Below, piece by piece: positions 1,729 through 60,355 of a stretch of DNA of 64,000 nt; position 1 is the first letter of the stretch, and each line of letters begins with the position of its first letter. Under the pieces are notes generated by a model, which saw nothing but the letters and a program-made list of their open reading frames with translations, did not search any database and was not told where the DNA came from. This stretch comes from Octopus sinensis (taxonomy: Eukaryota), in the NCBI RefSeq assembly GCF_006345805.1, contig NC_043003.1:72664001-72728000 (forward strand), given 5' to 3'. The position numbers and the translations under genes are program-made.

Positions 1729-1759
1729 TGTATGTGTGTATGTATATATATATATATAT

Positions 1760-1890
1760 ATAAATCCACTCACAAGGCTTTGGTCAACTTGAGGCTATCG
1801 TCGAAGGCACTTGCCCAAGGTGCCACAAACTGGGACTGAACCGAAAAACAGTGTTGTTGGGAAGCAAGCTTCTTACTGCACAGCCTATGC
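1760..1890 (-). mobile_element. tRNA-derived SINE, partial (same family as 15067-15480)
   Basis: Reverse complement of the head GGCTGTG..GTAAGAAGCTTGCTTCCCAAC..GGTTCAGTCCCA..GGCACCTTGGGCAAGTG..CCAAAGCCTTGTGAGTGGATT, which recurs across the window. Confidence 0.8.
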
Positions 1891-5755: not shown

Positions 5756-5787
5756 CACCCATTTATTTCTAATTATATATATATATA

Positions 5788-6950
5788 CTGGGGTTGGACA
5801 AAATAATGAAAATACCTTAAGATTTCAAGCAAATTTATTTTAATATGGGATAGGACTGCCTTTGGCTGTAATTACAGCTTGGATTCTACGAGGTATGGTC
5901 TTGTACAAAGTTTGAATTGTTTCCAAAGGAATTTTTGTCCATTCTTCAGCTAAAAGTTCTTGTAGTCATGATGGTGGAGGATAGCGACTCCTTACATGTT
6001 TTTCTAAAATGCACCATAAATGTTCAATAATATTGAGATCTGGGGACTGTGGTGGCCAGATAAGATGTTCAACTTCACTAAAATGTTCCTTTTTGCCATT
6101 CAGTAACAACTTTAGCTGTGTGAATTGGTGCATTATCATCCTGAAAGATTGCATTTCCCTCCAGAAACAGTTCTGCAACCATAGGATGAATTTGATCAGA
6201 TAAAATACTTAAATAGTCTTGACTGTTCATTTTGCCATGAAGGGGAACCATAGGGCCTGCAGATTTCCAAGATATAACCCTCCAGGTCATAACAGATCCT
6301 CCTCCATGTTTAACAGTTGGAAGAAGGCAGTCTAGGTCCAAAAGCTTCTTTTGGCTGTCTCCACAAATATACTCGGCTGGTGGTCAGAAATAAGGTAAAG
6401 GGTGACTCGTCCAAGAAAGTAACATTCTCCCACTGCTCTAGGGACGAATTCTGTTGGTTTTTACTCCACTCTGAACATTCGTTTTTGAAAATTGTGGTTT
6501 TTATGATTGCAGCCCTCCCAAGAAATCCAACTTTGTGCAACTCTTGGCAAACAGTTTTTGTGGAAACTGGGTTCTTGAGATGGTCATTAAACTCGGCAGT
6601 AATTTTGGGAGCTGTACTCTTTTGATCCTTTTTAACAATTCTTGTAAGAGTCCGACAGTCCCTATCTGGAAGTTTTTGTTTTCTTCCAGAGTTTTGTTTC
6701 AGCGAGGAGGATTTTCCCTCTTTCTCAAAGGCTGTCATTTTGAGACAGTACTTCTTGATATACTAAACATTTCGGCTGTTTTTGTTACACTAGTGCCTGC
6801 CATACGAGCACCAACAATTTGACCTCTTTGAAAGTCTGATAGATCTGTCATTTTAATAAATTTTAAGTCTCCTTTTCTGATGATATCTGAAAAGAAACAG
6901 CAGTTTTAGCAAAGCATATTATGCAACACTAATAATCAAAATAAAAAAAA
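5788..6950 (-). mobile_element. Tc1-family DD34E transposon, second copy, inverted relative to 481-1728
   Basis: TA followed by CTGGGGTTGGACAAAATAATG (TIR) at 5788. ORFs give FLDESPF, FQDDNAPIH and WPPQSPDLNIIEHLW (DD34E). Frameshifted. Confidence 0.93.
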
Positions 6951-7169
6951 CAGGTTTATCATACCCCTCCACCAACAAAGTGTGACTGTCTACCTGTGTT
7001 AAAAATTATGATTGTCTTATAAGTTCACATATTCATATACTGTGTATGTTATGGGAACTGATGTGGATGCTGATACTTTAACCAAAGTTCATTGGAGTAA
7101 AACCATATATTCATTTAGTACAGCACTGAGCAGATATTTCTCTTTAAAGATTTTTAGATTGAAATAAAC

Positions 7170-20549: not shown

Positions 20550-23435
20550 GGACAACCTGCTGAGAGCCACTGACCAGATCTGTGGCTGGTGCAAAGTCCC
20601 CTCCCGACCTAAAATAACATGGTGGTGGAACAATGTTGTAGACAGGGCTATTAGAGAAAAGAGATAGGCTTGGAAGGACTCGAAGAATGGGGGTAGCAGG
20701 AAATTGTATCAAACTGCCAGAAGGGAAGCTAGGAGACAGGTTTATTTAGCCAGAGGGGAAGCGGATAAGAAAAAATTTGCCAATGTTCTGCACCGTGAGG
20801 ACCAAAGACTTAACGTATTTCATGTTGCAAGACAGTGTGTGAGAGAGAATCGTGATGTGGTAGGAGAGAAATGTGTTCGCATGGATGATGGTTCACTTGC
20901 GCTAAATGAGGATGCAAAGAGAGAGGTTTGGAGACGCCACTATGAAAGATGGCTGAATAAAGAAAATGAATGGGATAAAGAGAGTCTGCCGAATGTCGAC
21001 CCAACAGAGGGACCAGCTATCCAAGTTGACAGTTCCTTGGTAGTTAAGGCAATTAGAAGCATGAAGACAGGGAAAGCCCCAGGCCCATCAGGAATTACTG
21101 CAGAGATGCTCAAAATATCTGTTAGTGTCAGCTATAGCCTAGTCACCCGTATAGTTAACCAGTGATACACGAAGGAGTCATACCCAATGACTGGTGTAGC
21201 AGCATAATAGTCAACTGCTACAAAGGTAAAGGTGACGCCCTAGATACAAATAATTACAGAGGTATCGAGCTGTTGGATCAGTTAATGAAGGTTACGGAGA
21301 GGGTCATAGCCCAACTAATTAGAGAGAGAGTTAGTTTGGATGAGATACAGTTTGGGTTTGTGCCAGGGAAAAGCACCACTGATGCCATATTTCTGGTAAA
21401 ACAGCTGCAGAGAAATATCTAGCCAAAGATAAGCCCCTGTACCTGGCTTTCGTTGACATGGAGAAAGCCTTCGACAGGGTCCCCCGATCCCTTATCTGGT
21501 GGTCAATGAGGAAACTGGGGATAGATGAATGGTTAGTGAGAGCTGTGCAAGCCATGTACAGGGACGCTGCTAGTAAGGTGAGGGTTGGCAACGAGTACAG
21601 TGAAAAATTCCGGGTAGAGGTTGGGGTCCACCAAGGTTCAGTCCTCAGCCCCCTTCTATTTATCATAGTCCTCCAGGCAATAACGGAGGAATTCAAGACA
21701 GGTTGCTCGTGGGAGCTCCTCTACGCTGATGACCTTGCTCTAATTGCTGAGTCACTATCAGAACTGGAGGAGAAGTTCCAGGTGTGGAAGCAAGGATTAG
21801 AATCGAAGGGCCTTAGAGTCAACCTAGCTAAAACCAAAGTCCTAATAAGTAGGAAGGTAGACAAGTCACAAACGCCTTCAGGTAGATGGCCCTGCACGAT
21901 CTGTAGGAAAGACGTAGGTATGTAGTGGATGTGTGTGTATGTAAACAAATACATAAACCGTTTCATGATTAAAAGGAATTTAATTACAGGGTTATAAGTA
22001 CACTACATACAAATGTAAGCAAATGCTACGAATTGCTCGTATAGAGCACATATTAAAAATGAATATGTTTGTGTGTGTGTGTTTCATTCGAAACAGTAGT
22101 CGATAGATACTGTGAGCATTTCTCTCTGTCTGTCGTCTGCCAAAACGCGGGGCGAAATAGATCTGTCTGCTGCCGTCTCCGCTGCGATTGTCCTTTCTCT
22201 GTTTTTCCCCTTGTATTTATAATATTTGTGACAGCTAGAAAAACAGACATATCGCAATAGACACAGTGCTTATTTAGGTCATCACTTGTCCAGTTGAACT
22301 TAGCCTGACATGGCTGAGGTCGCCGGTCAAAGGGAGATGATCGATCACTTTTTGACAGAACAAAGGGATTCTTACTTTTGCGCCTTTGATTGCATTGGGT
22401 TGGACGACCGATGATTCTTGGATTCGATTTCGAATCTAGGCTTAGAGAAGGAAGTGCTAATTCTTACAGGTAGAAACTCTATAAGATGCACCAAGTGCAA
22501 GCTATGGACACATAAGAAGTGCAGCAACATCAAGGGAAGGCTAACTGGGAAGATAGTTTTTGTATGTGGCAGATGCTCAGGAGCAATAAACACTGAAAAT
22601 ACGCAGAGACCAACTTCCGCCACATTCCAGGGAGAAAAACTAGAAATAGTTGATAGCTTCCGTTACCTAGGTGACCGAGTCAGTAGCGGGGGCGGGTGTG
22701 TTGAAAGTGTAACTGCTAGAGTAAGAATAGCCTGGGCAAAGTTCAGAGAGCTCTTACCTCTGCTAGGGACAAAAGGCCTCTCGCTCAGAGTAAAAGGCAG
22801 ACTGTATGACGCATGTGTACGAACAGCCATGCTACATGGCAGTGAAACATGGGCCGTGACTGCTGAGGATATGCGTAAGCTCGCAAGAAATGAAGCCAGT
22901 ATGCTCCGATGGATGTGTAATGTCAGTGTTCATACTCGACAGAGTGTAAGTACCCTGAGAGAAAAGTTGGACCTAAGAAGCATCAGTTGTGGTGTGCAAG
23001 AGAGACGTTTGCGCTGGTATGGTCATGTGGTGAGAATGGATGAAGATGGGTGTGTGAAAAAGTGCTACACCCTAGCGGTTGAGGGAACCTGTGGAAGAGG
23101 TAGACCCAGGAAAACCTGGGACGAGGTGGTGAAGCACGACCTTCGAACTTTAGGTCTCACCGAGGAAATGACCAGAGACCGAGACCTTTGGAAGTATGCT
23201 GTGAGTGAGAAGACCCGGCAGGACAAGCAAGGCCATAACCCGTGGCCTCAGTCCACTTATGCCTACCTTTCCTTCTTGGGAGACAAAACTCTACTCGTGA
23301 AGACCTGTTGAGGCAAGTGAAAAACAAAATCAAAATCAAAATCGATCAACATCAATGGAAATCGCAGCTGTGATACCAGTGCCGGTGGCACATAAGAGAA
23401 CCATCCGAGCGTAGCCATTGTCAGCGCTGCCCCGA
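20550..23435 (+). mobile_element. RTE-clade LINE, 5'-truncated and frameshifted, interrupted by a solo LTR
   Basis: RT motifs KTGKAPGPSGI, NYRGI, QFGF, KAFDRVP, GVHQGSVLSPLLF and LLYADDL, then a PHD-like Cys region, FRYLGD, LHGSETW, RLRWYGHV and GRGRPRKTW. Frameshifts near 21163 and 21410. Confidence 0.95.
21921..22468 (-). mobile_element. Solo LTR (Gypsy-like, 4-bp TSD) nested in the RTE ORF
   Basis: Termini TGTAG...TTACA. TSD GGTA at 21917-21920 and 22469-22472. Minus-strand TATAAAT (~22214-22220) and ATTAAA (~21978-21983) suggest antisense orientation. The LINE frame resumes exactly after it. Confidence 0.85.
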
Positions 23436-23959: not shown

Positions 23960-24310
23960 GCTATCACTGATGTTCTGTTACTATAGTAAACAACATTCCG
24001 ACTTCGTTTCAGAAATTCAAGTAATCCATAATATTTTTATACATTCCCTAGTTCCTCCGAGAAAGAAAAGTTCGCAATTCTCCACTTATTGGTCAAACGA
24101 TTAAAAGCAAGAAGAAGAAAAGCAGTAAAATATATGGCGTATTAAAACTAATTTAGTATTCGTTAAATTTACCAGAAATCATGTTAATTATTTCCTTAGA
24201 TTTAATATTGAATTTTTTTTTAAATGGCTATTTCGTCAAGTGCGGCTTCAGAACGGAGAACTAGCTCTATCTCTAAATCACTTCCTCGCAACGAGTAAAC
24301 AAACATGGCG
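23960..24310 (+). promoter_or_regulatory. Putative FOPNL promoter/5' UTR
   Basis: Repeat-free, relatively CpG-retaining stretch before the ATG. Contains an X-box-like GTTACTATAGTAAAC (23977-23991), forkhead-like GTAAACAA (23986, 24295), ETS-like CACTTCC and YY1-like AACATGGCG over the start codon. Confidence 0.5.
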
Positions 24311-24332
24311 CAAGTGAAAGATTTAAAAAACG
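24305..24332 (+). CDS. FOPNL: FOPNL/FOR20/CEP20 exon 1
   Basis: ATG GCG CAA GTG AAA GAT TTA AAA AAC G|GTAAAT encodes MAQVKDLKN, resembling vertebrate MATVAELKA. Phase 1 fits exon 2. Confidence 0.85.
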
Positions 24333-27946: not shown

Positions 27947-28144
27947 CTATTTCTGAAAGTTTGGAAAGAAAAGGTGTCCTGAACCAGGTGAAAGCTCAGA
28001 TACGTGCTGAGATGTTCCACGTACTAGATGAACATTCAGAAGGAAAACCTCCAATATGTAATGAAAACCTCATTATCAATGAATTGATCTTAGAATATCT
28101 CCAGTATAACAAATACAAACACACTTCTTCAGTTCTTATGGCAG
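27947..28144 (+). CDS. FOPNL: FOPNL exon 2 (TOF/LisH region)
   Basis: Acceptor TTTTACTAG|CT. AISESLERKGVLNQVKAQIRAEMF..ENLIINELILEYLQYNKYKHTSSVLMA is the FOP N-terminal/LisH signature. Donor GCAG|GTGAAT. 198 nt, phase 1-1. Confidence 0.95.
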
Positions 28145-31965: not shown

Positions 31966-32222
31966 TAAAATAGAATTTATGAATAAGTTTTACGTTTTGA
32001 AAATAAGAAACTAAATAGAATAATTAAGATAAAAAAAAAAATCAGTATTTATTTATCACAAGTTTAGGTTAGAAATTGAAGAGACAAATGAAGGTACAAT
32101 GGTGTTTGTTTATCTCTAGTTGTTCACCTGCTTCCTCATATGATGATCTCACACCTGCTTTATTGTAATTATAATTAGTATTGATATTTCATTAATGTTA
32201 TTTGTTATAATCATTCTTACAG

Positions 32223-32307
32223 AGGCTGGTCAGTCTGAAACTCGTTTAGACAGAGAATTTATCAAGAATGAACTCAACATTGCTGAGGATTTAGAGACCA
32301 GCAGTGT
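32223..32307 (+). CDS. FOPNL: FOPNL exon 3
   Basis: Acceptor TTCTTACAG|AG. EAGQSETRLDREFIKNELNIAEDLETSSV compares with human ESGQPVVPLDRQFLIHELN. Donor GT|GTAAGT. 85 nt. Confidence 0.92.
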
Positions 32308-32669
32308 GTAAGTCTTTGTATATCCCTCCTATTTAACTATTGTTTCTGTGTTGTTAAGTTGGTGGAAGAGAATTGCTCCCTGAAGGTGACATAAATTTTG
32401 GTAATATGTTAATCTTCTAGATACAATTTAAGATGTTTATGTGTTTATGTGCATGTGATAGCATATCTATCTATGACATGTGAATTATACTCCAGTAGTA
32501 CTCAGTCCACAGGTCTGTAAGCCTGTAGTACTTCAGTGTTGGTAAAACCTGAGTTTTGTATAACCTGAAAATGATTAGGGCTGAAGTATTGGACTTAAAG
32601 AAGAAAGCTAGTGTTTGGCATGCATACACACTCCATTGCAAGTTACAATATGGTCAAGAAATGGATCGG

Positions 32670-33206
32670 TCTGGTTATGGAGAAGAAGCAATGAGCAAAT
32701 TTCATAATGTGCTCATTTTCTGATTTTCATTCAAATTGGGTGGTACCCATTTGTCGAGCTTTTTTGATTTTCCAATCACATGCAAATAGTTTCAGACAGT
32801 TTTCTAACTAACTTGAAGTTCTTTTGCAAGTTCTTGAGTGATTTTACATAGATCTTTCTCAATGATGATCTTTAATTGACCATCATCAATGACAGATGGG
32901 CGTCCACTATGCTCATAATCTTCAAGGCTCAGATCTCCACTGCAAAATCATTTAAGCCATTTTTGAGCTAACCACTCACTATATTGAACTCATAAAGCAA
33001 ATATGCTCCTTTGTCACTTCCATTATAACTTTGAAAAAAAAATAGCTGTTAAAATCGAACTACGCTCTTAAAAATTTGCAATAAGAATAAGGACAAGGCA
33101 AAATTACTACCTGCTTTTATAGCGAGTTGATGCAGGTAGTTTATCCTGTCCCCTTCTGATTTTAAGTTCATGCAATTGAAAAAAGCCACATTATTTATGG
33201 GATGAC

Positions 33207-33211
<5 letters not shown>
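32670..33211 (-). mobile_element. mariner transposase 5' remnant
   Basis: Minus frame LEDYEHSGRPSVIDD..TQELAKEL..IGKSKKLDKWVPPNL (WVPHEL-like). TIR-like TTGGGTCATCCCATAAATAATG next to (TA)n. Confidence 0.75.
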
Positions 33212-33239
<28 letters not shown>

Positions 33240-33245
<6 letters not shown>

Positions 33246-34319
33246 GAGTGTATTTTACCTTGTTAACAATTAACATGGATAAATGAATGAATAGTTACCA
33301 GGGCAGCAAAAATCTCACAAGTAAAGATGTTGTAACTCCTTGTTTATAAAGGTTGAAACTTCGTGTTTACGTTGAATATTTGAATGATATGAATAAAAAA
33401 TGGAGTTAACGCAGGTTTAAACAAGTATTTTTACTTTCTACATATGTTTCAAAAATTCCACTGATACTTATTCAAAAGAATAAAAGGTATAAACAATGCA
33501 ATCTTCTCTTCGGGAAAGTGAAAAAACGAAACTTGTCAATACAACATTTTAGCAAAAAATTATGGATTCGTATAGCGATAGACAGAACGCTATTAATATT
33601 GTTTAAAAAAACCTTATATGATATAACGTCATAAGTAGCTAACAGAAAGAGTAGGGATATTAATAGTGAATGTTAAATATAAAGGAAATTAAAGTCTAAA
33701 CTATATATAATGATAGAGACTACTTATACGCACTAAAAGTATGTTTCTGCCAATGCTTACATCTGTATGCTCATTCTATAACCGTGTTTACTAGAGTATT
33801 TTTAGAAAAAATAATGAAAAATAGCTCAGAATTGCAGAGAAGACAGAATTTCTTGCTTTTGTCATATGGTATCGAAATTGAGAGGATCAACCATTCTAAA
33901 TGAAATTGTTCATTATGGTCTTTTAAATCCCAAATCAGTTTGCTGACACCGGTACTATTCCGTTTATTTCTATCCCTAAATGTTGAGTAATGGATAGAAA
34001 TTCTCTTAGATAACTCTAACGATGTGCTTCCAATGTAAAATCGTACTTTATTACGAGTACTGATTATACACTGGTATATAGAATTTTTAATCTTAGAGTT
34101 ACTTGACATAAATTTAATTCTATTGGGATTGACTTCAGATACAATAACCTTGTTATTAATTTTTCTAGAGGGTTGGATGGTAGTAGCTAAATTAATGTTA
34201 GTATTAGGAAATGTATTAATATTTAACAGTTTGTTATTATGAGAAGATATAATTTGCAAGAGATTTTTTTGTGTTTGAAAAACCTATCCTAACCTTATGT
34301 GAATTAATTATAGAGTGAT
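33240..34319 (-). mobile_element. Penelope-like element 3' part (GIY-YIG endonuclease), left arm of palindrome
   Basis: ORF 33771-34259 gives SIYQC..FYIGST..KRISIHYSTF..NSTGVSKLIWDLKD..LEW.IL..PYD..CLLCNSE, the Penelope-type GIY-YIG C-terminus. It ends in (TA)n. Confidence 0.85.
33433..33519 (-). ncRNA. Hammerhead-ribozyme-like fold (left-arm copy)
   Basis: Reverse complement of 35116-35202. Confidence 0.5.
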
Positions 34320-35241
34320 ATTACTCTATAATTAATTCACATAAGGTTAGGATAGGTTTTTCAAACACAAAAAATCTCTTGCAAATTATATCTTCTCATA
34401 ATAACAAACTGTTAAATATTAATACATTTCCTAATACTAACATTAATTTAGCTACTACCATCCAACCCTCTAGAAATATTAATAACAAGGTTATTGTATC
34501 TGAAGTCAATCCCAATAGAATTAAATTTATGTCAAGTAACTCTAAGATTAAAAATTCTATATACCAGTGTATAATCAGTACTCATAATAAAGTACGATTT
34601 TACATTGGAAGCACATCGTTAGAGTTATCTAAGAGAATTTCTATCCATTACTCAACATTTAGGGATAGAAATAACGGAATAGTACCGGTGTCAGCAACTG
34701 ATTTGGGATTTAAAAGACCATAATGAACAATTTCATTTAGAATGGTTGATCCTCTCAATTTCGATACCATATGACAAAGGCAAGAAATTCTGTCTTCTCT
34801 GCAATTCTGAGCTATTTTTCATTATTTTTTCTAAAAATACTCTAGTAAACACGGTTATAGAATGAGCATACAGATGTAAGCATTGGCAGAAACATACTTT
34901 TAGTGCATATAAGTAGTCTCTATCATTATATATAGTTTAGACTTTAATTTCCTTTATATTTAACATTCACTATTAATATCCCTACTCTTTCTGTTAGCTA
35001 CTTATGACGTTATATCATATAAGGTTTTTTTAAACATATTAATAGCGTTCTGTCTATCGCTATACGAATCCATAATTTTTTGCTAAAATGTCGTATTGAC
35101 AAGTTTCGTTTTTTCACTTTCCCGAAGAGAAGATTGCATTGTTTATACCTTTTATTCTTTTGAATAAGTATCAGTGGAATTTTTGAAACATATGTAGAAA
35201 GTAAAAATACTTGTTTAAACCTGTGTTAACTCCATTTTTTA

Positions 35242-35248
<7 letters not shown>
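34320..35248 (+). mobile_element. Penelope-like element 3' part, right arm of palindrome
   Basis: Reverse complement of 33387-34319 with about 6 substitutions and about 4 single-base deletions. ORF 34379-34723 is frameshifted after RDRN. Confidence 0.85.
35116..35202 (+). ncRNA. Type I hammerhead-ribozyme-like fold with extended stem II
   Basis: ACUUUC-CCGAAGA-[GAAGAUU...AAUUUUU long stem II]-GAAA-CAUAUG-UA-GAAAGU. Stem I is ACUUUC/GAAAGU, helix III is palindromic, and the predicted cut is after GUA (35196). The core has C in place of U4. Confidence 0.55.
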
Positions 35249-35292
<44 letters not shown>

Positions 35293-35614
35293 TATATATA
35301 TGCAGGATCCATATATGATATATATGTAAGGTCTATATATGCTATTTATGTGAGTGTTTGTGTGTTTAATGCATATATGGTATGTAAGGCAGTGAGGGCA
35401 AGCTGGCAGAATCATTACCACAAGAATCAGATGGGTCAGAGTTTATCGAATTGTGTAAATTGACATCAGTGATTCTCTTGTACTTTCTCAACCCTAGACT
35501 GCTGTGGTGGTAATTTAGTTTCAGCTAGCATTCAGCAGATCCATAATGAAAAACATTTCAAATTTGACCAACCCATTTTTCTCATATATCTAGGAATACA
35601 TTAATTAATGTGTA

Positions 35615-36025
35615 CCTAGGCTTCCTGGGTCTACCTCTATCGCAGTTTCCCTCCACATTTAGAAATTGACACTTCTTTACATGTCCTCATCCATGACCAT
35701 ATCAGCTCAGTTGTCTCTCTTGCACACTACATCTGATACTTCTTATACCCAACTTTTCTCTCAAGATGCTTACACTCTGTTGTACATGCACACTGACATT
35801 GCACATCCAGTGAAGCATACTGGCTTCATTTCTTTCAAGCCTACATATGTCCTCAGTTGTCACAGCCCATGTTTCACTGCTGTGTGGCATTGCTGTTCAC
35901 ACACAAGCATCATACAATCTGCCTTTCACTCTAGGGAGAGGCCCTTTATTGCCAGCAGAGGTAGGAGCTATCTGAACTTTGCCCATCCTATTCTTATTCT
36001 CAGAGCATCCACCTCCGCTACTAAC
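35615..36025 (-). mobile_element. RTE LINE fragment (family of 20550-23435)
   Basis: HSSETWAVTTEDICRLERNEASMLHWMCNVSV in ORF 35702-35890. Confidence 0.85.
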
Positions 36026-36189
36026 TGTAGGTTATAGGCTTTCTGTGATTTGAATTGAGAAAATCAAGTAAAAGAACTTTTATATTATTTGTTCTGTTGT
36101 ATAATATTGTTTAACTGAGAATAGAAAAATATCATTGCAGAATTATTAAACTGTATTTTCTCCATTCTTCTTTTTTTTTTTTTTTCCAG

Positions 36190-36277
36190 CCCGTTGTTGT
36201 ATTCTCTAGTGAATTTCTTCCTGCAACAAAGTGCTGGCAGCAAAACCAAAGTCACTAAGAAAGAAACTTGGCAATAA
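36190..36277 (+). CDS. FOPNL: FOPNL exon 4 (terminal, stop)
   Basis: Long poly-T acceptor TTTTTCCAG|C. PLLYSLVNFFLQQSAGSKTKVTKKETWQ* contains the conserved PLLY motif. Exon sum 28+198+85+88 = 399 nt (132 aa plus stop). Confidence 0.92.
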
Positions 36278-37119: not shown

Positions 37120-38400
37120 GTGTAAGAAGGGAGGGAAAGAAACTGCTGGAATTCTGGGATGCAAATGACTTGAATGACGTGAATTTTAAGATATTAGCCA
37201 TCCACTTGATTACCTATCAATATGGTAAGTACACAAGAAAGATTAACTACATTCTCTCCAGAATATGAGATGGGCAGATGCTTGTAAATGCAATCTTTCT
37301 ATAGTGAAAAATGTATAATCCAAAATAAGTTAGTGATTAGTGACTTCAAACTCAGAGCTACAAGGACTCAGAAAAGCAAACCAGTCTGGAAAAGGAAGAT
37401 ATAGATGCATAAAGACCCAGTAAGTAGTCAGAAAGTTAGAGAAATTGAGTGGACGCATTTGACATAGAGAACAATTGGAAGTTGCTACCGGACAAACTAC
37501 TGAGAGTTACAGACCAAACCTGAGGCTGATGCAAAGTTTTGGCCAGACAAAAGTTGTTGGTGTGGTGGTGCAACAGTGAAGTAGCCAGAGCTATAAAAGT
37601 GTAAAGACAGTCTTGGAAAGACTGGAAAAATAGAAATGACAGAGAATTTTATCAGGTAGCCAGAAGATTAGTGTGGGAGAAAGGTTTACACAGCTAAGGG
37701 AGAAGCAGAAAGTAGGAAATCTGTCTGTTCAACATGAGGATCAGAGACATGAGATATTTTGGTTTGCAAGACAATATATCAGAGAGAATCAGGATGTTGT
37801 GGGTGAGAAGTGTATGTGAAAAGATGATCCACTGTCCATACTCACCTTTTTTTTAACTTGAGTTTGTTCTGGTACCCCTTACAAAGATCAAGTTTCATCA
37901 CCTTATCCCATGTCTTCCTGGGTCTACCTCTATCACAGTTTCCCTCCACAGTCAGAGATTGACACTTCTTATGCCCAACTTTTCTCTCAAAATGCTTACA
38001 TTCTGTTGTACATGCACACTGACATTGCACATCCAGTGAAGCATACTGGCTTCATTTCTTTCAAGCCTACGTATGTCCTCGGTTGTCACAGCCCATGTTT
38101 CACTGCTGTGTAGCATAATTGTTCACACACAGGCATCATACAATCTGCCTTTCACTCTGAGAGAGAGGCCCTTTGTTGCCAGCAGAGGTAGGAGCTATCT
38201 GAACTTTGCCCAGCCTATTCTTATTCTCACAGCTACACTCTCAGAGCATCCACCCCAGTTACTAACTTCATCACTTAGATAATGGAAGCTATCTACTACC
38301 TCAAGCTTACCCTGCTGGCAGTTGGTAGAGTCTATTTTCTGCACATTTTCAGTGTTTATAGTACTTGTACATCTTCCACACACAAAAGCTATTTTCTCTG
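37120..38400. mobile_element. Two decayed RTE fragments in opposite orientations (+ ~37120-37830; - ~37880-38400)
   Basis: The + part matches the endonuclease end/linker upstream of the RT (LLEFWDAND, INYIL, RENQDVVGEKC). The - part gives GKLEVVDSFHYL..RIGWAKFR and RGRPRKTWD. Confidence 0.75.
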
Positions 38401-40189
38401 ATATTACTGCATCCCTTGTGTGTCCATAGCATACACCAGGTGTGTATTTTATCATTATTCTGCAGTCAGTCATTGCGACTATGATTGTTTATGGCTTTGG
38501 CATGACTTGATAAGCTTTCTCGATACTGGTTGATTTTTCACTTGGGTTTGCCATTTATTATGATCAGTTCCTTTCCACCTATGCTCATTTTTGCAAATCT
38601 CAATCTAGGTCTTCCCTGGGAGTAAAGGATTTGTATGGAGTGTTTGTTGTTGTCCATCCTGTGTATATGGCCAACCAACAAAAATTTCTATCAATGAGGA
38701 TTTCTATCATAGTAGACAAGTCTAAAAATGGAACATTTGGTGCTATTCGAGGACATTTACTTGGTAATTAAAATATAAATAAAGTGAATCAAGTACCACT
38801 TCTAGCCACTTTGGATAGGCAATTTCCACACCTCATTCCCATTTCAAGCCAGAGTGTTAGTGGTACACCAATATAAGCACTCATTGTACATACCTATTAA
38901 TATATTTCAATAGATGTATACTACTTGCATCTCCTCTATATGTGTGTGTGTGTTTGTGTGCACATACACATGCATGCACACAAGTGTGTGTGTATGTAGA
39001 CTCTTGCTATCATTGTTAAGGTGTTGGGCTGGCAGAATCATTAGAGCGTCAGAAAAATTCCTTTTTTGCAGAATCATTACAGTATCAGAAAAAATCCCTT
39101 TTGGGATTTTGGACAGCTTGATGGAACTGGTATGGTTAGGTGCACCAGGTTCTACAGTCTGTTTTGGCTTGGTTTCTACATACAGCTGGATGCCTTTCCT
39201 AACACCAACCACTTTACAGAGCACACTGTGTGCTTTTTACATGGAACCAGCACTTTTCACACCAATGCTTTTTATGTGGCACTTTGGTTTTCATTTGTTG
39301 TGGTGGGTGGGTCATGTTGAGTTCAGCAAAGCATCACATACCTTGATCCATGTCAGTCAATAAATCACAAGAATGAACAATAACAGTCACTGGATTGCAT
39401 CTTTAGGAATCCTGCTTTGCTTATGGCTTATTTTATGGAGGATACTTTGGAGTTGCAAGTCTTAGCATTTTGAGATCAGCCTTCAATACTTCATCCCATA
39501 TCTTTCTGGGTCTCCCTCTTCCACAACCTCCCACCACTTTAAGTGATCAGCATGTTTTTATGCAATCCACATCCATCTGCATCACATGACCAAACTATTA
39601 TTATTATTATTAAGGTACAGGGCTAGAAATCTTGAGGGAAGGGGATTAGTCAGTGTGTTGGCCTCAATATATAACTGGTATTTTATTATATTGACCTTGA
39701 AAATGATGAAAGGTAAAGTTGATTCTGCCAAGTTCAAATTGCTAGACTTTTGGGGGTGAGGGGGTCATTAAAATAAAGTACTAGTTAAGTACTGTGCTTT
39801 ATAGTTTTAATTGATCCCCTCCTCTCAACTACTGGCCTTGTGCTTACATTGGAAACTATTATTTGTTTTCTTCTGTCCTTTGTCTATGATATTTAAGAAT
39901 CAGATCTGAATCACATTAGTCATTAAATATTGAAAGTAAAAAAAACATAAATCACATTGATTTTTAATCTCATCTTTATTATTGTCTTTCATTTGTTTTG
40001 TGTGTGTGTGTGTGTTTCTCAGAAAATTTGAACACCTGACCTGTTGTTGCAACATATTAAGCAATGGTTTTGTATTGTGTCAGAGTAAACTTTTCTCTTT
40101 GTTTTTCTGGAGTTATTCCAATGAGTACCAGTCATATACTGGGGTTGATGTCGAATACCCATTTAAAATCTGGCATAAATTCCATTGAT

Positions 40190-42284: not shown

Positions 42285-44362
42285 TATATATGCTAGATAG
42301 ATAGTTATATATATGTACACACATACCCTCACACATCTTTACATTTTTACAGACTTCTATTATAAGACTAAATTTCCTTTTACTAATGAAATCCAAAGAG
42401 CTTGGCTATTGCTATTTAACCCTGAATCAGCCTTGATTCGATGGACCTATGATGAAAGTACCTTTCTTTTCACATGAAATAACAATGCAGTTTGAATAAG
42501 AATTGGCTTCAGTTTGTAGTATGTTGCGTGATCTTCTTGACCAGTGGTTCAGGAGGAGAGGTTTTAAAAGGGGCATCTAAGTGTCCTGTGAATTTTTAAA
42601 ACTATGATTTACTTCTGTAGAAAATCGATTCTAATGTTTCACTCATGAGTATGATTGGTAAAATAAGATAAATGATCGTTTCCTATATTTGTTTCTAAAT
42701 TTGTTGACTTCAAAATAGTTTTACATAACTTTCCAAACAAAGGCTGTCATAGCTGTAGGTGCTTAACAGCAAAAATCCGGTGGTTGTTGTGGTATTTGGT
42801 GGCAAAGACGAGGGCAAGTAAATTGATTATAGAAGAGAGTATAGCCAACTGAAATGATCTGACACAAGAATAATACACGTATTTTACTGAGTTCAGAGCT
42901 TCACTCTGGTAACACTGGAACCTATATCTATATCTTTATTACCCACAAGGGGCTAAACATAGAGGGGACAAACTGGTACTTAATTTATCGACCCTGAAAG
43001 GATGAAAGGTAAAGTCGACCTCAGCGGAACTTGAACTCACAACGTTACGGCAGACGAAATACCGCTGTAGAGATGGAACTAAATTATGCTGCTGTGCAAG
43101 AGAAAAGACCTGTCCAATACAAGGAAGAATACAAATGTAAAATGATGATGATAATGATGGTCAGGATAACGACGATGATGATGATGAACGGCAAATCTCA
43201 CATCAGCTCAACTTTTTGGGAAGTGTATTAAACTACCATTAAACATTACCACCTCCACTATCTGTACCATCACCCCCAATAACAATTCTATCTTGTAGTA
43301 TTAAAAGAGAGTGGTGGTGGGGAAAACATACGTCGTGGTGTTTATAGAAGATATTGGAGGATAGACTTGATAGGGGTGGGAACTACAGTTCTTGAGGTAT
43401 TTAAGAGGGTGTTGATGAAGAGAATGGGTAAAGTGGGCAACTACGTATTTACTTATGCATGTTTACGTTTGGAGATGAAATCCCATCGAAATTAACTTAG
43501 CAATCAAAGGACGAGCGGCAAAGTTGGTCTCGGAGGGAATTCAGTGTAAATCTTATTCGACTTTACTCTTCGTTTTTCTGAGCAGACGATTTAATAGGTA
43601 CCAGTCGAATACTGAGGTTTATTTAATTAATTAATCCTATCCCCTAATATTTGTGGCCTAGTGCCTATTATGAGAAATTTATATCGTTATTGTAAACAAC
43701 TACGTAATACCTGATGGTGTTAAAAACACTCCACCCTGCTTCTCTTCAAACTTACGCTAATCCCATCGCAACCTGCTCTCTTCTCCAAGACGTCTATCAA
43801 CACTTTACTCACTATCTGAACCACCCACAACTCGCTTCTCCCACACACGTTTTATAGTTCCTCTCTCTCTCTCTCTTACGGAAAGGTGCCTCCCCTTTAT
43901 GTGAATACTACCGTCCCTACTTCTTCATTAAACTGATCTACATCTATCTGTCTATCTCCGTCTGGCTGTCAGTCTGATATACTAAATTAGTAAGAGAAGT
44001 AGGTAGCGCCATTGTTGTAGTTTAGTAGGAAAGCTAAGACCACTGCTATCACAACCAACATTACTACCATTCTCTCTTTTAATGTTTACTTACAAGCTCA
44101 GTTTTGTTTCACCGGCAATGCATTCGCTCTCAGTCACCTGCACTACATCTGTTTATTAACCAATGTAATAATTTTATTGTTAAATCAAGCACAGACATAC
44201 GCAATTATACAAGAACAATAAGAGAAAATAATTATACGAACATTAGTGATCCAGTGTTCAGGATTATATTCTGTTCACTGAGAAGTGAGATCGTTGGCAA
44301 ATTTACGTCAACAACAACAAACACAAGAAGAACAAAAGTAAACATAACCTTTAAATCGAAAC

Positions 44363-44593
44363 ATGCCTCGGTTAGCTGGGACCGAACCTACAGTAGTGGC
44401 CACACCGCCACATGCCCCGTCGCAAAAGAAACTAATTGTTTTAGTTGACATGGATATGGTGTTGTGTGATTTTGAATCATACTTTTTGGAGAAATACCGT
44501 GAAAAGTATCCGACGGAACCTTATGTGCCATTAGAAGAACGTTGTCAGTTCTACATTCGGGAACAGTACGCCACTATACGACAGGATCTTTCG
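44363..44593 (+). CDS. NT5M: 5'(3')-deoxyribonucleotidase (NT5M/NT5C-like, HAD family), exon 1; gene continues beyond what was recognised
   Basis: LIVLVDMDMVLCDFESYFLEKYREKYPTEPYVPLEERCQFYIREQYATIRQDLS aligns by eye to human [54 protein letters not shown] (HAD motif I DxD). Phase-0 donor TCG|GTGAGG. NT5M versus NT5C orthology is not resolvable here. Confidence 0.88.
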
Positions 44594-44619
44594 GTGAGGA
44601 TTGAACCTATCATAGATTT

Positions 44620-44900
44620 TATTTTGTACATGTTTCAGTCATTGGAATGGGCCATGCTGGGGTACTATCTTAAAAGAATTAGTCTTTTTTTTTTTCGGGT
44701 ACATAAACAAAGCAGCACTGGTTGTCCAGCCGTGGTGGAGACAAACACAAACACTTCAGTTTCTGTCTACCAAATCCACTCACAAGTCTTTGGTCGGTCC
44801 GGGGCTATAATAGAAGACACTTGCCCAAGGTGCTACGCAGTAGGACCGAACTCAGAACTATGTGGTTGGGAACTAAACTTCTTACCACACAGCCACGCTT
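44620..44900 (-). mobile_element. tRNA-derived SINE in NT5M-like intron 1
   Basis: Reverse complement of GCGTGGCTGTGTGGTAAGAAG..GCACCTTGGGCAAGTGTCTTCTATTATAGCCCCGGACCGACCAAAG. This accounts for the tail of ORF 44363-44902. Confidence 0.8.
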
Positions 44901-45215
44901 AACTTTTCATGAACATTTTTCTTATATATTTAGGTGATCTGGTTGTATAATAGTACTGTTTACTCTTTCAGGGAGTTCGAATTTTAACCTTCAGTTTGTG
45001 TAGGACCCAAAAGTTGTCAGTTATTTTTGTGGCCCACGCGTAAAATACAGATAGGAGTCTAATGATGGTCGAGTATTAATCAGAAACATATTGTTATAAA
45101 TTAACAATATTTCTTTCAATTGTTTAAAGTTATTAATTTGGAAAACTGTTGGAATGGTATTCTTTTCGTTTTGTTAAAAAATATTTATTAGCGAAGAGAG
45201 GCAGTATTAATACGG

Positions 45216-45490
45216 AGAAGTAATATTTATCCTTACATAAACATGGATGTTCTACTAGAACAAACTATATTGTGGAAACGATCATATTGGTTTTCTGGTG
45301 CAAAATGTACTCTTGTTTATATCGCCAGCAGCGAGGTGGCGGGGAGGGGGGACTTATCTTCTTGCTAGCAATATAAACAAGAGTGCATTTTCCACCAAAA
45401 AGCCAATATGAGTTTCTCTCAGGGTATCTATTGCAGTATAGTTTGTTCTAACAGAACACCCACGTTTAAGTGGGTATAAATATTACTTCT
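45216..45490. mobile_element. Fold-back MITE-like inverted repeat
   Basis: AGAAGTAATATTTAT..TAGAACAAACTATA..CATATTGGTTTT..ACTCTTGTTTATAT pairs with ATATAAACAAGAGT..AAAAGCCAATATG..TATAGTTTGTTCTA..ATAAATATTACTTCT. Confidence 0.7.
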
Positions 45491-50269: not shown

Positions 50270-51635
50270 TTTTTTCACCCCACCACCCTACCTCTCCAAC
50301 GCACTATTCTTCAAGCTTTCTGGCATCTCCAGTCCGACCCGTCCACTTCAAACCTCTTCCCTAACTGACCCCTCCCCTCTTTCAAACGAGCTCATAACCT
50401 ACGAGACCTCTTGGTCCACAGCTTCTTCCCTGACCCTACCTCCCAACCTGGCTCGTTCTCCTGCTCCCACCCACGTTGCCGCACTTGCCCTTGCCTCTCC
50501 AACACCACCCTCCTCACCGGCACCCATCATCGACCCTATCGCATCATCGACTCCTTCACCTGCACCTCCAGCATTATCATCTATTGCATCTCTTGCTCTC
50601 TATGCCATTCCCCGTACATCAGACAAACGGAATGCCGCTTGGCTGACCAGTTCGCGGAACACCTCCGAGACATCCTCCTCGCCAATGACACTCTGGTCTC
50701 ACGCCATTTCCGCTCCACTGGTCACTCCTTGCAACACCTGTCTGTGTTCAGATTGTCCTTGCACAGAGGCCATCTGGATTCCCGCTTGCGCCGTGAACAG
50801 GGATCAATCTTCTCTCTTCGCTCTTTTATGCTATTTGGGCTCAACTCCCCCCCTTTCATCTAACCTCCCCCAGACTCCTACTTCTCTTCAGTCCTTTATC
50901 TTTTCACCCCTACTCTCTTTCCCTCCTCTTCCCTTCTTTCCCTTCTTTCCCTTTCCCCCCTTCTTCCCTCTTCTTCTCTCTTCTTCCCTCTTCCCCTTCT
51001 TTCTTTCTCTCTGCTCCCTCACTCCCCTTCTCCCCCCCTCCTCCACACCCCACCTGGGCTTTCCCCACTCTCTCCCCCTACCCCCCACAACATCACACCA
51101 CACTACACTACACCATACAACATTACACATCACATCACAACACACCTCCCACAGCACACCGCCCACACACCCATCCCCACATCTTTACACCTACACATAC
51201 ATACACATATCACATCACAACACACCACTCTCATACCCATTCCCACGTCGCTACACCCACACATGCATACACATGTCCAGACCACCAGCCCTCTTTCACA
51301 TGCACATACATACTCTCATACACACACGCACCTTTGTTTTGGGGGCACTTTCGTTTTGGAAGTCACTTGACCCTGTTATCTCCCCTACTGTCCCTCTAGT
51401 GTCTGACCTCTGACCTCTGCCTGAAGTCAGGACGCCATGATAGATCGTTAGCTCCTATACGCATTTTTTTCTCTCCTTGTTTTTTTTCTGTGTATCTTTC
51501 TGTCAAAGAGCGTAGGCTCGAAACGTATAAGACTTGTTCTATTTCTATTCCTGAGCGCCATACTAATACATTTGTTTGTTTGTACTCCACCTGCCTTCGT
51601 CTTTTGTTTATTTTCGTAAACCTTCCCATTATATA
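50270..51635 (+). mobile_element. Neptune-clade Penelope-like element, 3' part
   Basis: ORF 50411-50863 gives CSHPRCRTC (Neptune Cys linker), FTCTSSIIIYCISCSLC..YIRQT..RL..EHLRDI..VSRHF..GH..R..RE..I..L..GLN (GIY-YIG). Pyrimidine/CA-rich 3' UTR. The terminal segment is shared with 29310-29590. Confidence 0.9.
51495..51532 (+). ncRNA. Variant minimal hammerhead-ribozyme-like motif
   Basis: UCUUU-CUGUCAAA-GAGC GUAG GCUC-GAAA-CG-UA-UAAGA in the Penelope 3' terminal segment. Non-canonical core. Confidence 0.45.
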
Positions 51636-55992: not shown

Positions 55993-56152
55993 TGGATCAA
56001 AACAGTTTGATTCAAATTCATTGGTACTCTTGAATTTCAAGTGTGATGCTAGTCATCAGCTGAATTTGAATTTTGAATTCAAAATGGCTGGCAACTAGCA
56101 TCACGCTTGAAACTCAAAAGTACCAATGAATTTGAATCAGTGTTTTGATCCA
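55993..56152. repeat. ~160-bp hairpin (small MITE-like)
   Basis: TGGATCAAAACA..TGATTCAAATTCATTGGTACT..TTTCAAG.GTGATGCTAGT pairs with ACTAGCATCAC.CTTGAAA..AGTACCAATGAATTTGAATCA.TGTTTTGATCCA. Confidence 0.75.
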
Positions 56153-56182: not shown

Positions 56183-56687
56183 ATTACATAGAAAAATGCG
56201 GGCATGAAAAGTAATATTCTTAAGATTATAAACCTGGAAAAGTACAGGACAAGTTATTACACCTGTAAACTATTACTTCAAGTAAAGTAAAGAATAAGAA
56301 ATTTTTTACTTAAAATATTGCAGCGAAGAATGCCAGTTCTAATTTATCACTCTTTACAGTTCTCATCTTTTAAATCTATAGTACAAAACTGTTCTGCTAA
56401 TTTGTAAGTTTTTCTAAGTAGTCACTTTTTTCTGTATTTAAGGTAGTAAATTAGCCAAATTCTTCTTAAATAAGTATAGTGTTATTTGTAAACTATAATA
56501 GAATATTTTTTAATATTCAAATTGTAATTTTAGCTGCAATATTTTAAGTAAAAATTTTCTTATTCTTTACTTTACTAGAAGTAATAGTTTGTCCTATACT
56601 TTTACAGGTGTAATAACTTGTCCTGTACTTTTCCAGGTTTATAATCTTAAGAATATTACTTTTCATACTCACATTTTTCCATGTAAT
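56183..56687. mobile_element. Fold-back MITE with ~150-bp TIRs
   Basis: TACATAGAAAAATG..TAAGATTATAAACCTGGAAAAGTACAGGACAAGTTATTACACCTGTAAA..TTACTTAAAATATTGCAGC is mirrored at 56532-56687. TA flanks. Confidence 0.8.
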
Positions 56688-59024: not shown

Positions 59025-60355
59025 ACCCAGTGTAAGCTATGGACGCATAAGAGGTGCAGCAACATCAAAGGGAAATTAACTGATAAGATAGCTTTCATGT
59101 GTGGCAGATGCACAGGGACAATAGACACCACAGATACTCAGAAAACAGATTCCATCACACTCCAGGCGGAGAAACTAGAAGTAGTTGATAGTTTCCGCTA
59201 CCTGGGTGACCAAATTAGTAGTGGAGGTTGATGCTCAGAGAGTGCCACCACTAGAATACGAATAGCCTGAGCAAAGTTCAGAAAGCTCCTACCCCTACTG
59301 GCGACAAAGGGTCTCTCGCTCAAAGTGAAAGGTAGATTGTATGATGCATGTGTGCGAACTGCCATGCTTCACGGTAGTGAAACATGGGCTGTGACTGCAG
59401 AGGACATGCATAGACTTGAAAGGAATGAAGCTAGCATGATCCGCTGGATGTGTAATGTTAGTGTGCGCGCACGACAGAGGGTAAGCACCCTGAGAGAAAT
59501 GCTGGACATAAGAAGCATCAGATGTGGTGTGCAAGAGCGATGCTTGCGATGGTATGGTCATTTACTGCGGATGGATGAGGAGAGATGTGTGAAGAAGTGC
59601 CACTCCCAAACAGTTGAAGGTATCAGGGGGAGAGGTAGACCCAGAAAGACATGGGATGAGGTAGTCAAGCATGACGTCAGAGCGTTGGGCCTCACTGAGG
59701 CAATGGCGAAGGACAGAGATCTCTGGAGATATGCTGTGACTGCAAAGACCCGGGCTGCTTTCTGCACCAGTTCCGCATAGCCCCTGCCCATTCAAAGTAC
59801 CTTGGATTCCAGAACATCCTGCTGTGCTTAAGGAGACCTGTTGAGTCAAGTACATGAACATCGAAATAAATATCAATGGAAATAGTAGTTGTGATACATG
59901 TGCTGGTGGCACATAAAAAGCACCATCTGAACGTGGCCGTTGCCAGCACCACCTCGACTGGCTTCTGTGCCGGTGGCACATAAAAAGCACCATCCGAATG
60001 CGGCCGATGCCAGCGCTGCCTCAACTGGCTCTAGTGCCAGTGGCACATAAAAAGCACCATCCAAATGTGGCCGATGCCAGCGCCGCCTTGGCTGGCTTCC
60101 GTGCTGGTGGCACGTTAAAAGCAACAACCAATCGTGGCCGATGCCGGACTCCCCTGGCACCTGTGCAGGTGACACGTAAAAAGCACCCACTACACTCGCG
60201 GAGTGGTTGGCGTTAGGAAGGGCATCCAACTGTAGAAACACTGCCAGATCAGACTGGAGCCTGGTGCAGCCCCTGGCTTCCCAGACCCTGGTCGAACCGT
60301 CCAACCCGTGCTAGCACGGAAAACGGACGTTAAACAATGATGATGATGATGATGA
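59025..60355 (+). mobile_element. RTE LINE 3' end with complete 3' UTR and (ATG)n tail
   Basis: CKLWTHKRC..FRYLGD..LHGSETW..RWYGH..GRGRPRKTW (ORF 59325-59780), then 67-bp tandem units and the tail CCAACCCGTGCTAGCACGGAAAACGGACGTTAAAC(A)ATGATG. Confidence 0.92.
59900..60190 (+). repeat. 67-bp tandem repeat in the RTE 3' UTR
   Basis: GTGC(C/T)(G/A)GTGGCAC-ATAAAAAGCACC units start at 59900, 59967, 60034 and 60101, with a degenerate one at 60163. Confidence 0.85.

What the first reader, a model, noticed from the sequence alone, without database searches (positions are those of the whole stretch)
33387..35248. ~1.86-kb spacer-less palindrome of head-to-head Penelope GIY-YIG ends in FOPNL intron 3
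Seen: two ~930-bp arms meet with no loop at 34319/34320 (TAGAGTGAT|ATTACTCTA). Both ORFs read outward, and both outer ends run into (TA)n. The left copy extends ~150 bp further. Of about 6 arm substitutions away from the centre, 4 are CpG transitions, which suggests real divergence. About 4 single-base homopolymer deletions in the right arm could be consensus errors. Known: Penelope-like elements often leave inverted, 5'-truncated structures, and long perfect palindromes are usually unstable. Inference: this is a snapshot of fold-back-primed second-strand synthesis at a (TA)n target. FOPNL pre-mRNA would form ~900 bp of dsRNA between exons 3 and 4, a likely ADAR hyper-editing or endo-siRNA substrate.
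Basis: partly seen in the sequence, partly recalled or inferred. Interest (0 to 1): 0.75.

Follow-up and report, generated by a model that had tools for sequence, protein, structure and literature searches.

The report
Head-to-head Penelope insertion in octopus intron
Two broken tail-end copies of a very abundant Penelope-like jumping gene sit head to head inside an intron of an octopus gene, which is the already described way these elements land, so the palindrome is most likely real but ordinary.

Summary
The palindrome is there: arms 33387-34319 and 34320-35248 differ at 11 of 933 columns, inside intron 3 of octopus FOPNL/CEP20. It is two equally 5'-truncated ends of a very high-copy Hydra-like Penelope element, with GIY-YIG, CxxC and CxH motifs, a hammerhead-like motif in each arm, (TA)n outside and a one-sided 144-bp tail. 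Head-to-head inverted copies with a one-sided tail are the published insertion form (PMC3846280, PMC8557442). This scan noted the same architecture before on other DNA (36 findings, at least 7 genomes). Corrections: the centre is a 4-6 nt loop or microhomology whose G34317 seems templated by the right copy, and one of the four indels is a left-arm insertion. Both arms share at least 7 rare changes, including a premature stop, so they come from one decayed template or were homogenised later. The junction offers no stem for simple fold-back. Priming from both target strands on one RNA fits better, but this is inference. No spanning read or RNA was tested, so an artefact (about 10%) and the ADAR claim stay open. 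Mild extras: a missing linker cysteine motif and a long tail.

The parts
24305..24332 (+). FOPNL/CEP20 coding exon 1
   Evidence: exact match to the first 9 residues of P0182 (named CEP20, Octopus vulgaris), followed by GT
27947..28144 (+). FOPNL/CEP20 coding exon 2 (LisH / FOP_dimer region)
   Evidence: 66 of 66 residues identical to P0182; Pfam FOP_dimer E 2.8e-5, below cut-off; donor site
32223..32307 (+). FOPNL/CEP20 coding exon 3; intron 3 runs 32308-36189 (3882 bp)
   Evidence: AG/GT-bounded in-phase exon, matches P0182
32606..33209 (-). High-copy repeat abutting the left (TA)n; looks like a decayed mariner-type transposon (label recalled from motifs, not confirmed)
   Evidence: depth jumps from tens to 1e4-7e5; motif-like fragments; 0 of 4 fragments hit Pfam
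33210..33242 (.). Left (TA)n target remnant
33243..33386 (-). One-sided 144-bp 3' extension (tail) of the element; outer edge uncertain by a few bases
   Evidence: depth about 3100-5000 times the flank in X2-X4; contigs run from it into the body at 33381, while 14 X1 contigs carry (TA)n directly before 33387 (table 7)
33387..34316 (-). Left arm: 5'-truncated Penelope-like copy (endonuclease-coding end plus 3' UTR)
33720..34283 (-). Left endonuclease-coding remnant: GIY-YIG, CxxC, CxH; premature stop at 33771-33773, present in both arms
33433..33519 (-). Type I hammerhead-like motif, left copy
   Evidence: same sequence as the right copy
34317..34322 (+). Junction hexamer: 4-base self-complementary core with a G/T mismatch either side; appears to be the natural 5' continuation of the right copy
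   Evidence: tables 7 and 8 (X2 loose ends before 34317, X2 record 16 ends at 34316, X4 record 32 ends at 34321)
34323..35248 (+). Right arm: 5'-truncated copy ending at the family's short terminus; two coding frameshifts (34675, 34698)
35116..35202 (+). Type I hammerhead-like motif, right copy: 6-bp stem I, core with C in place of U4, 56-nt stem II region, short palindromic stem III, predicted cut after 35196
   Evidence: the minimum-energy fold gives stems I and II; folding z -1.46 only; no hammerhead among 19 Rfam matches
35245..35301 (.). Right (TA)n target remnant
36190..36277 (+). FOPNL/CEP20 last coding exon
   Evidence: acceptor; 27 of 28 residues identical to P0182

Best explanation
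A genuine single insertion of a Hydra-like Penelope retroelement into a (TA)n run in FOPNL intron 3, now inert (about 0.85 for this much). Shown: identity of the parts, two family-wide 3' termini, private and shared differences of the arms. Inferred mechanism (about 0.5): an active family protein, working in trans on one 5'-truncated RNA from a decayed copy, nicked both strands of the (TA)n target and primed cDNA from each. The left flank primed at the long terminus, giving the tail; the right flank primed at the short terminus. Both cDNAs ran to the same RNA 5' end and were joined end to end through the 4-base self-complementary core at 34318-34321 or by a template jump, keeping the right cDNA's last six bases. 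Each was then copied. The arms have since drifted apart for very roughly 0.3-0.9 million years. The intron RNA will fold into a duplex of about 925 bp and is a likely passive ADAR substrate, with no sign of function.
For: Two proper 3' ends face outward into (TA)n with collinear FOPNL exons on both sides. The right end coincides with a terminus seen in 14 X1 contigs and the tail is a family feature. Private changes occur in both arms: the family base matches the right arm at 33543, 33857 and 34161 in 4 of 4 runs. 4 of 6 arm substitutions are CpG transitions. Of 15 displayed differences shared by both arms, 7 are sites where at least 90% of contig depth differs in all 4 runs; the 5 of these in coding sequence are all non-synonymous or nonsense, as expected of a decayed template (40 of 93 rows were shown). 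A Penelope protein nicks and extends both strands, starts at two sites and is predicted to dimerise (PMC11167929, parts 1-2 read). Trans-mobilisation by Penelope is described (PMC3846280). Age from JC 0.09 = 25 My (PMC13282606 passage; arithmetic).
Against: Dual priming is inferred from one locus and from in vitro work on another clade (Poseidon). It needs strand displacement on a shared RNA, which was not shown. The family base at 34317/34322 was not among the 40 displayed rows and is inferred from where three records end; homologues allow either Tyr or His at that codon. If the family base is the other one, the junction is a natural 6-bp palindrome with one later mutation and fold-back fits equally well. 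No target-site duplication can be read in a microsatellite. The published proposal is self-priming. Three right-arm deletions against three substitutions is a high indel share, suggesting some consensus error. The right flank was not included in the stretch laid.
Confidence: 0.5

Rival explanations
1. Same genuine insertion, but built by self-priming or fold-back: one cDNA (or an antisense template, as Arkhipova et al. propose) folds at its end and is copied back. The copy ends at the short TA-rich site inside the element and joins the other (TA)n, or the endonuclease trims the tail from one side.
For: Published interpretation of head-to-head Penelope junction palindromes (PMC3846280). The tail is ascribed to endonuclease resolution (PMC8557442). 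Family contigs carry a short TA run at 33381-33390 that offers microhomology to the target (table 7). Explains equal truncation and shared changes with no strand displacement.
Against: No stem is available to prime on: a fold at the centre would need a 2-nt loop or a mismatched 3' end (sequence). The central hexamer is in the right copy's orientation while the tail is on the left, so an extra trimming, loop inversion or coincidental mutation is needed.
Confidence: 0.3
2. An older single copy was later duplicated in inverted orientation by replication template switching at DNA level, or the two arms were homogenised by arm-to-arm gene conversion. The shared defects then arose in place and the locus is older than the arm divergence suggests.
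For: Shared rare changes (at least 7) outnumber private substitutions per arm (3), and include a CpG-type nonsense change. The window's bases are nearly absent from family contigs at several sites, so no large sub-family carries them.
Against: The right end matches a recurrent family terminus, which points to the element's own machinery. Private differences are spread evenly along the arms rather than clustered outside converted tracts. Contigs drop rare variants, so a single donor would be invisible.
Confidence: 0.1
3. Assembly artefact: a fold-back long read or a collapsed larger insertion, with polishing errors giving the arm differences.
For: High share of short-run deletions in one arm. 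Thousands of family copies make polishing unreliable here. PMC8557442 notes assembly problems with such structures.
Against: A fold-back read would run back through the tail and left flank; here the right arm stops at a natural terminus and continues to the next FOPNL exon. Substitutions are strongly CpG-biased and fall in both arms. The junction is asymmetric and appears templated.
Confidence: 0.1

Closest known systems
Typical insertion unit of endonuclease-bearing Penelope-like elements (Arkhipova et al. 2013, PMC3846280; Craig et al. 2021, PMC8557442)
   Same: Inverted 5'-truncated copy adjacent at the 5' end, head to head, palindrome at the junction, tail at one end only, AT-rich target.
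   Different: Both copies are cut at the same point, so the whole unit is one palindrome with no reverse transcriptase part. The tail is 144 bp against the 30-40 bp described.
Hydra clade of Penelope-like elements (Craig et al. 2021), e.g. Hydra-1_Obim and Penelope-13_HM
   Same: C-terminal GIY-YIG with CxxC and CxH, no CCHH, hammerhead near the 3' end, (TA)n target. Penelope-13_HM is listed with a 5'-truncated inverted copy (nt 1-966), and a Hydra family is listed from Octopus bimaculoides.
   Different: The CxCX5C linker is missing and replaced by an Asn-rich stretch, as in close Octopus sinensis relatives P0004 and P0009. Hammerhead and linker differ by eye from Hydra-1_Obim, so this is another family. 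The hammerhead has C at U4 and a much longer stem II.
Poseidon element of Anolis (PAc), Frangieh et al. 2024, PMC11167929
   Same: Two 3' termini that define a tail; AT-rich target; both-strand nicking would give outward-facing ends.
   Different: Different clade; two start sites a few tens of bases apart; joining of two cDNAs is not described in the parts read.
Palindromic or inverted intronic repeats as ADAR hyper-editing substrates (Porath et al. 2017, PMC5625713)
   Same: Long near-perfect duplex in a pre-mRNA; octopus has one of the two strongest hyper-editing signals, and Penelope is heavily edited in lizard.
   Different: Editing at this locus was not tested.

Membership tests
Endonuclease-bearing Penelope-like element | C-terminal GIY-YIG endonuclease related to PLE proteins | tested here: met
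   motif at residues 68-85; tblastn of full-length RT-EN proteins P0001 and P0154 E 1e-18; Pfam GIY-YIG E 0.002, under cut-off
Endonuclease-bearing Penelope-like element | Telomerase-like reverse transcriptase upstream in the same ORF | tested here: inconclusive
   truncated away at this locus; no RT match in the window with 3 query proteins; the homologues carry RT; no full-length family copy was available
Endonuclease-bearing Penelope-like element | Hammerhead motif near the 3' end / pLTR | tested here: met
   type I layout with stems I-III in both arms; one core deviation (U4 to C); not found by Rfam; activity untested
Endonuclease-bearing Penelope-like element | Inverted 5'-truncated copy and one-sided tail | tested here: met
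   tail longer than the described 30-40 bp
Hydra clade | CxxC and CxH around the conserved E and N; no CCHH | tested here: met
   one CxxC at 147 and one CxH at 175 reading through the stop with X; aligned to the same motifs of P0001; only one Cys inside the GIY-YIG core
Hydra clade | Insertion into (TA)n | tested here: met
   other copies also end in (TA)n (table 7)
Hydra clade | CxCX5C linker upstream of GIY-YIG | tested here: not met
   absent from the window protein, P0004 and P0009; present in P0001 and P0059, and in 43 of 82 hits with enough upstream sequence. Filed therefore as Hydra-like, not as a proven member
Hydra clade | RWK and DKT motifs, divergent RT4; placement in an RT tree | not testable with these tools
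   region absent at the locus and no host genome held; full-length homologues P0001 (RWK, DKT) and P0059 (RWR, DKT) have them
Naiad clade | N-terminal endonuclease with CCHH, no canonical hammerhead | tested here: not met
   the endonuclease is at the 3' end followed by a hammerhead-like motif; definition
ADAR or endo-siRNA substrate | A-to-G clusters or small RNAs over the arms | not tested
   only contigs of DNA or unlabelled runs were laid; duplex predicted only

The most novel reading that the evidence does not exclude
This octopus family shows that Penelope palindromes arise by two-strand target priming on one RNA followed by end-to-end joining of the two cDNAs, with tail and junction bases coming from opposite arms. 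It also targets (TA)n without the cysteine linker thought to mediate that bias and has an unusually long 144-bp tail. With thousands of copies, the family would let both ideas be tested genome-wide from junction statistics.
Probability: 0.3. Interest if true: 0.5.

Novelty: new member of a known kind. Interest (0 to 1): 0.22.

Why it matters
As a single locus it matters little: it is one decayed insertion of an abundant family in a known arrangement. Its value is as an entry point. The steps after first-strand synthesis in Penelope transposition are still unresolved (PMC8557442 section 15; PMC11167929), and junction-versus-tail polarity across many copies of this family could separate two-strand priming from fold-back. 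A Hydra-like lineage that keeps (TA)n targeting without the cysteine linker would weaken the proposed role of that linker. A persistent intronic duplex of about 925 bp is a ready test substrate for octopus hyper-editing.

Tried and rejected
No host genome is held, so no genome-wide survey of palindromic copies or donor search was possible; no second copy lies in the 64-kb window. No RNA holder listed. The A>G and T>C counts come from other family copies in contigs and say nothing on editing. Depth ratios are summed contig depths, indicative only; X1 was left out of the ratio because 2 of its 6 flank bins had no cover. Rfam: 19 matches up to E 10, all below gathering score; the miRNA-family matches at the centre just reflect the hairpin. 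Pfam gave 0 of 4 hits for the mariner-like flank fragments. An SRF-TF hit (E about 0.06) was rejected as chance. Naiad membership rejected. Three peptide motifs and one 12-base motif of this family were not found in the Craig et al. supplement text (long runs are cut and lines wrapped there, so this is weak). No ORF start with an RWK motif was seen in the tail. Literature searches: 'Penelope + palindrom + inverted + retrotransposon', 'Penelope + hammerhead + pLTR', 'Penelope-like + head-to-head', 'octopus + RNA editing + inverted repeat + intron', 'octopus + Penelope', 'Penelope-like + twin priming', 'palindrome + arm-to-arm gene conversion + transposable element', 'Penelope + self-priming + inverted + second-strand'. 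No listing described this locus or a two-cDNA joining model, but most subscription papers are not in the library and only listings were seen for most hits.

Full report
Observation. The inverted repeat is real in the window. Arms 33387-34319 and 34320-35248 align over 933 columns with 11 differences: six substitutions away from the centre, one mismatch at 34317/34322 and four single-base indels. It is by far the longest and most exact self-palindrome among the inverted matches of 100 bp or more in the 64 kb. Four of the six substitutions are CpG transitions, while only 32 of 930 arm positions are CpG (P about 2e-5). (TA)n runs lie at 33210-33242 and 35245-35301, with 144 extra bases between the left run and the left arm.

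Host gene. The exon at 27947-28144 is identical to a protein labelled CEP20 of Octopus vulgaris, with FOPNL-labelled relatives. All four coding exons map in order on the + strand at 24305, 27947, 32223 and 36190. The palindrome lies in intron 3 (32308-36189). The host is an octopus of that group; one residue of exon 4 differs from the labelled protein.

Identity of the element. Each arm encodes, reading outward, the last part of a Penelope-like ORF. Full-length RT-endonuclease proteins match at E 1e-18, and 1704 representative proteins match at E up to 0.001. Two of the closest carry Octopus sinensis labels. Craig et al. 2021 (PMC8557442; passages, sections 11 and 15, supplement part 2 and supplement searches seen) define the Hydra clade by a C-terminal GIY-YIG with CxxC and CxH, no CCHH, a CxCX5C linker, a hammerhead and (TA)n targets. 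The locus meets all that can be tested except the linker, which is replaced by an Asn-rich stretch here and in P0004 and P0009. The RT motifs cannot be tested. I file it as Hydra-like. By eye it differs from Hydra-1_Obim in linker and hammerhead. It has a 6-bp stem I, a core with C in place of U4, a long stem II and a short palindromic stem III. Rfam did not report it and the folding z-score is only -1.46, so the call rests on layout and position, which match Cervera and de la Pena 2014 (PMC4209133, parts 1-2 of 4 read).

What other copies show. Contigs of four public runs were laid on 32150-34420. Summed depth over arm and tail is about 3100-5000 times that of the unique flank in X2-X4 (indicative only). 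Fourteen X1 contigs carry (TA)n directly before 33387, the position where the right arm ends, while contigs in X1, X3 and X4 run from the tail into the body. The family therefore has two 3' termini 144 bp apart. The contig majority agrees with the right arm at 33543, 33857 and 34161 in all four runs, and one deep X4 contig agrees with it at the 34264 indel, so both arms have private changes. The polarity of the three other substitutions (right arm changed) is inferred from CpG context; those rows were not among the 40 of 93 shown. Fifteen displayed differences are shared by both arms. Seven of them are sites where at least 90% of depth differs in every run, and the five in coding sequence all change or stop the protein. 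The arms thus come from one already decayed template, or were homogenised later.

The junction. X2 contigs join the window at 34317 on the right arm, X2 record 16 stops at 34316 on the left arm, and X4 record 32 reaches 34321 with two differences. Together these suggest that 34317-34322 is the natural 5' continuation of the right copy. The centre is then a 6-nt asymmetric loop, or a 4-base self-complementary overlap, not a mutated perfect palindrome. This is indirect: the family base there was not displayed, and homologues allow either residue at that codon.

Mechanism. Arkhipova et al. 2013 (PMC3846280, parts 1-4 of 5 read) report abundant head-to-head inverted structures with palindromes at the junction and propose self-priming. 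[quoted passage not shown] Frangieh et al. 2024 (PMC11167929, parts 1-2 of 4 read) show a Penelope protein nicking and extending both strands from two start sites. Here the tail sits on the left copy, the junction bases belong to the right copy, and there is no stem to fold back on. The simplest reading is that both target strands primed cDNA on one truncated RNA and the two cDNA ends were joined. I give this about 0.5, fold-back with later trimming or loop inversion 0.3, DNA-level duplication or conversion 0.1, artefact 0.1. Arm divergence of 6 in 930 (2 in 898 without CpG) gives roughly 0.3-0.9 My at the rate quoted in PMC13282606 (passages seen).

Artefact question. It was not settled directly: no raw or long reads were available. 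Against an artefact: two natural 3' ends face outward, the gene is collinear across the locus, the substitutions are CpG-biased and fall in both arms, and the junction is asymmetric. For some consensus error: three short-run deletions in the right arm.

RNA consequence. The + strand transcript folds into 923 pairs at -1516 kcal/mol, with perfect segments up to 131 bp. Octopus has very high hyper-editing and Penelope is heavily edited in lizard (PMC5625713, passages seen). Editing here is likely but untested, and would be the expected fate of any such intron.

Comparison and verdict. Earlier notes of this scan describe the same architecture on other DNA (36 findings in at least 7 genomes, 8 shown; 3 more); they are unchecked and were not used as evidence. 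Look-ups by this sequence and by this genome returned nothing. The bioRxiv preprint 10.64898/2026.07.22.740005 (passages seen; supplements closed) added nothing on inverted copies. Verdict: a real-looking, ordinary insertion of a probably undescribed Hydra-like octopus family. Interest 0.22, with modest upside from the junction polarity, the missing linker and the long tail.

Noticed in passing
window 33387-34316: The 10 arm differences outside the centre are unusually evenly spaced; the longest perfect stretch is 131 bp (P about 0.006 by gap variation, 0.0017 by longest gap; post hoc). Could be chance, a polishing or read-length effect, or survival of palindromes whose perfect stretches are too short to recombine.
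   Followed up: partly
window 34088-34260 and mirror in the right arm: The linker before the GIY-YIG lacks the Hydra CxCX5C motif and is Asn-rich, like Octopus sinensis proteins P0004 and P0009, which are labelled as unrelated proteins; (TA)n targeting is kept.
   Followed up: partly
window 33243-33386: Tail of 144 bp, about four times the described length; family contigs show a short TA run between tail and body, so the tail may be captured 3' flank.
   Followed up: partly
window 32606-33209: High-copy repeat with mariner-like motif fragments (label recalled; Pfam 0 of 4) whose end abuts the (TA)n target, so the microsatellite may have grown from its TA site.
   Followed up: partly
window 32434-32441: An 8-base deletion allele in intron 3 in one contig each of runs X2 and X4, beside the undeleted form; X2 also differs at two exon 3 bases, 32233 and 32236.
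   Followed up: no
window 55993-56152 and 45216-45490: Two smaller, decayed self-palindromes (83% over 163 bp and 71% over 290 bp), and an inverted pair 56183-56327 / 56530-56687.
   Followed up: no
window 548-1765 and 5761-6952: Two inverted Tc1-type transposon copies, 86% alike; the first ORF hits HTH_Tnp_Tc3_2 at E 2e-15.
   Followed up: no
window 20668-23311, 35621-36030, 37914-38442, 59030-59780: Several pieces of one LINE-like family (RTE-like by recall), the longest with large open frames.
   Followed up: no
window 44348-44902: Frame with a weak NT5C (5' deoxyribonucleotidase) hit, E 0.028, probably an exon of a neighbouring gene.
   Followed up: no
window 50369-50863: Cys-rich frame that resembles the linker and GIY-YIG end of another Penelope-like clade (recalled resemblance; no Pfam hit).
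   Followed up: no
window 59899-60187: Tandem array of a 67-bp unit, 4.4 copies.
   Followed up: no
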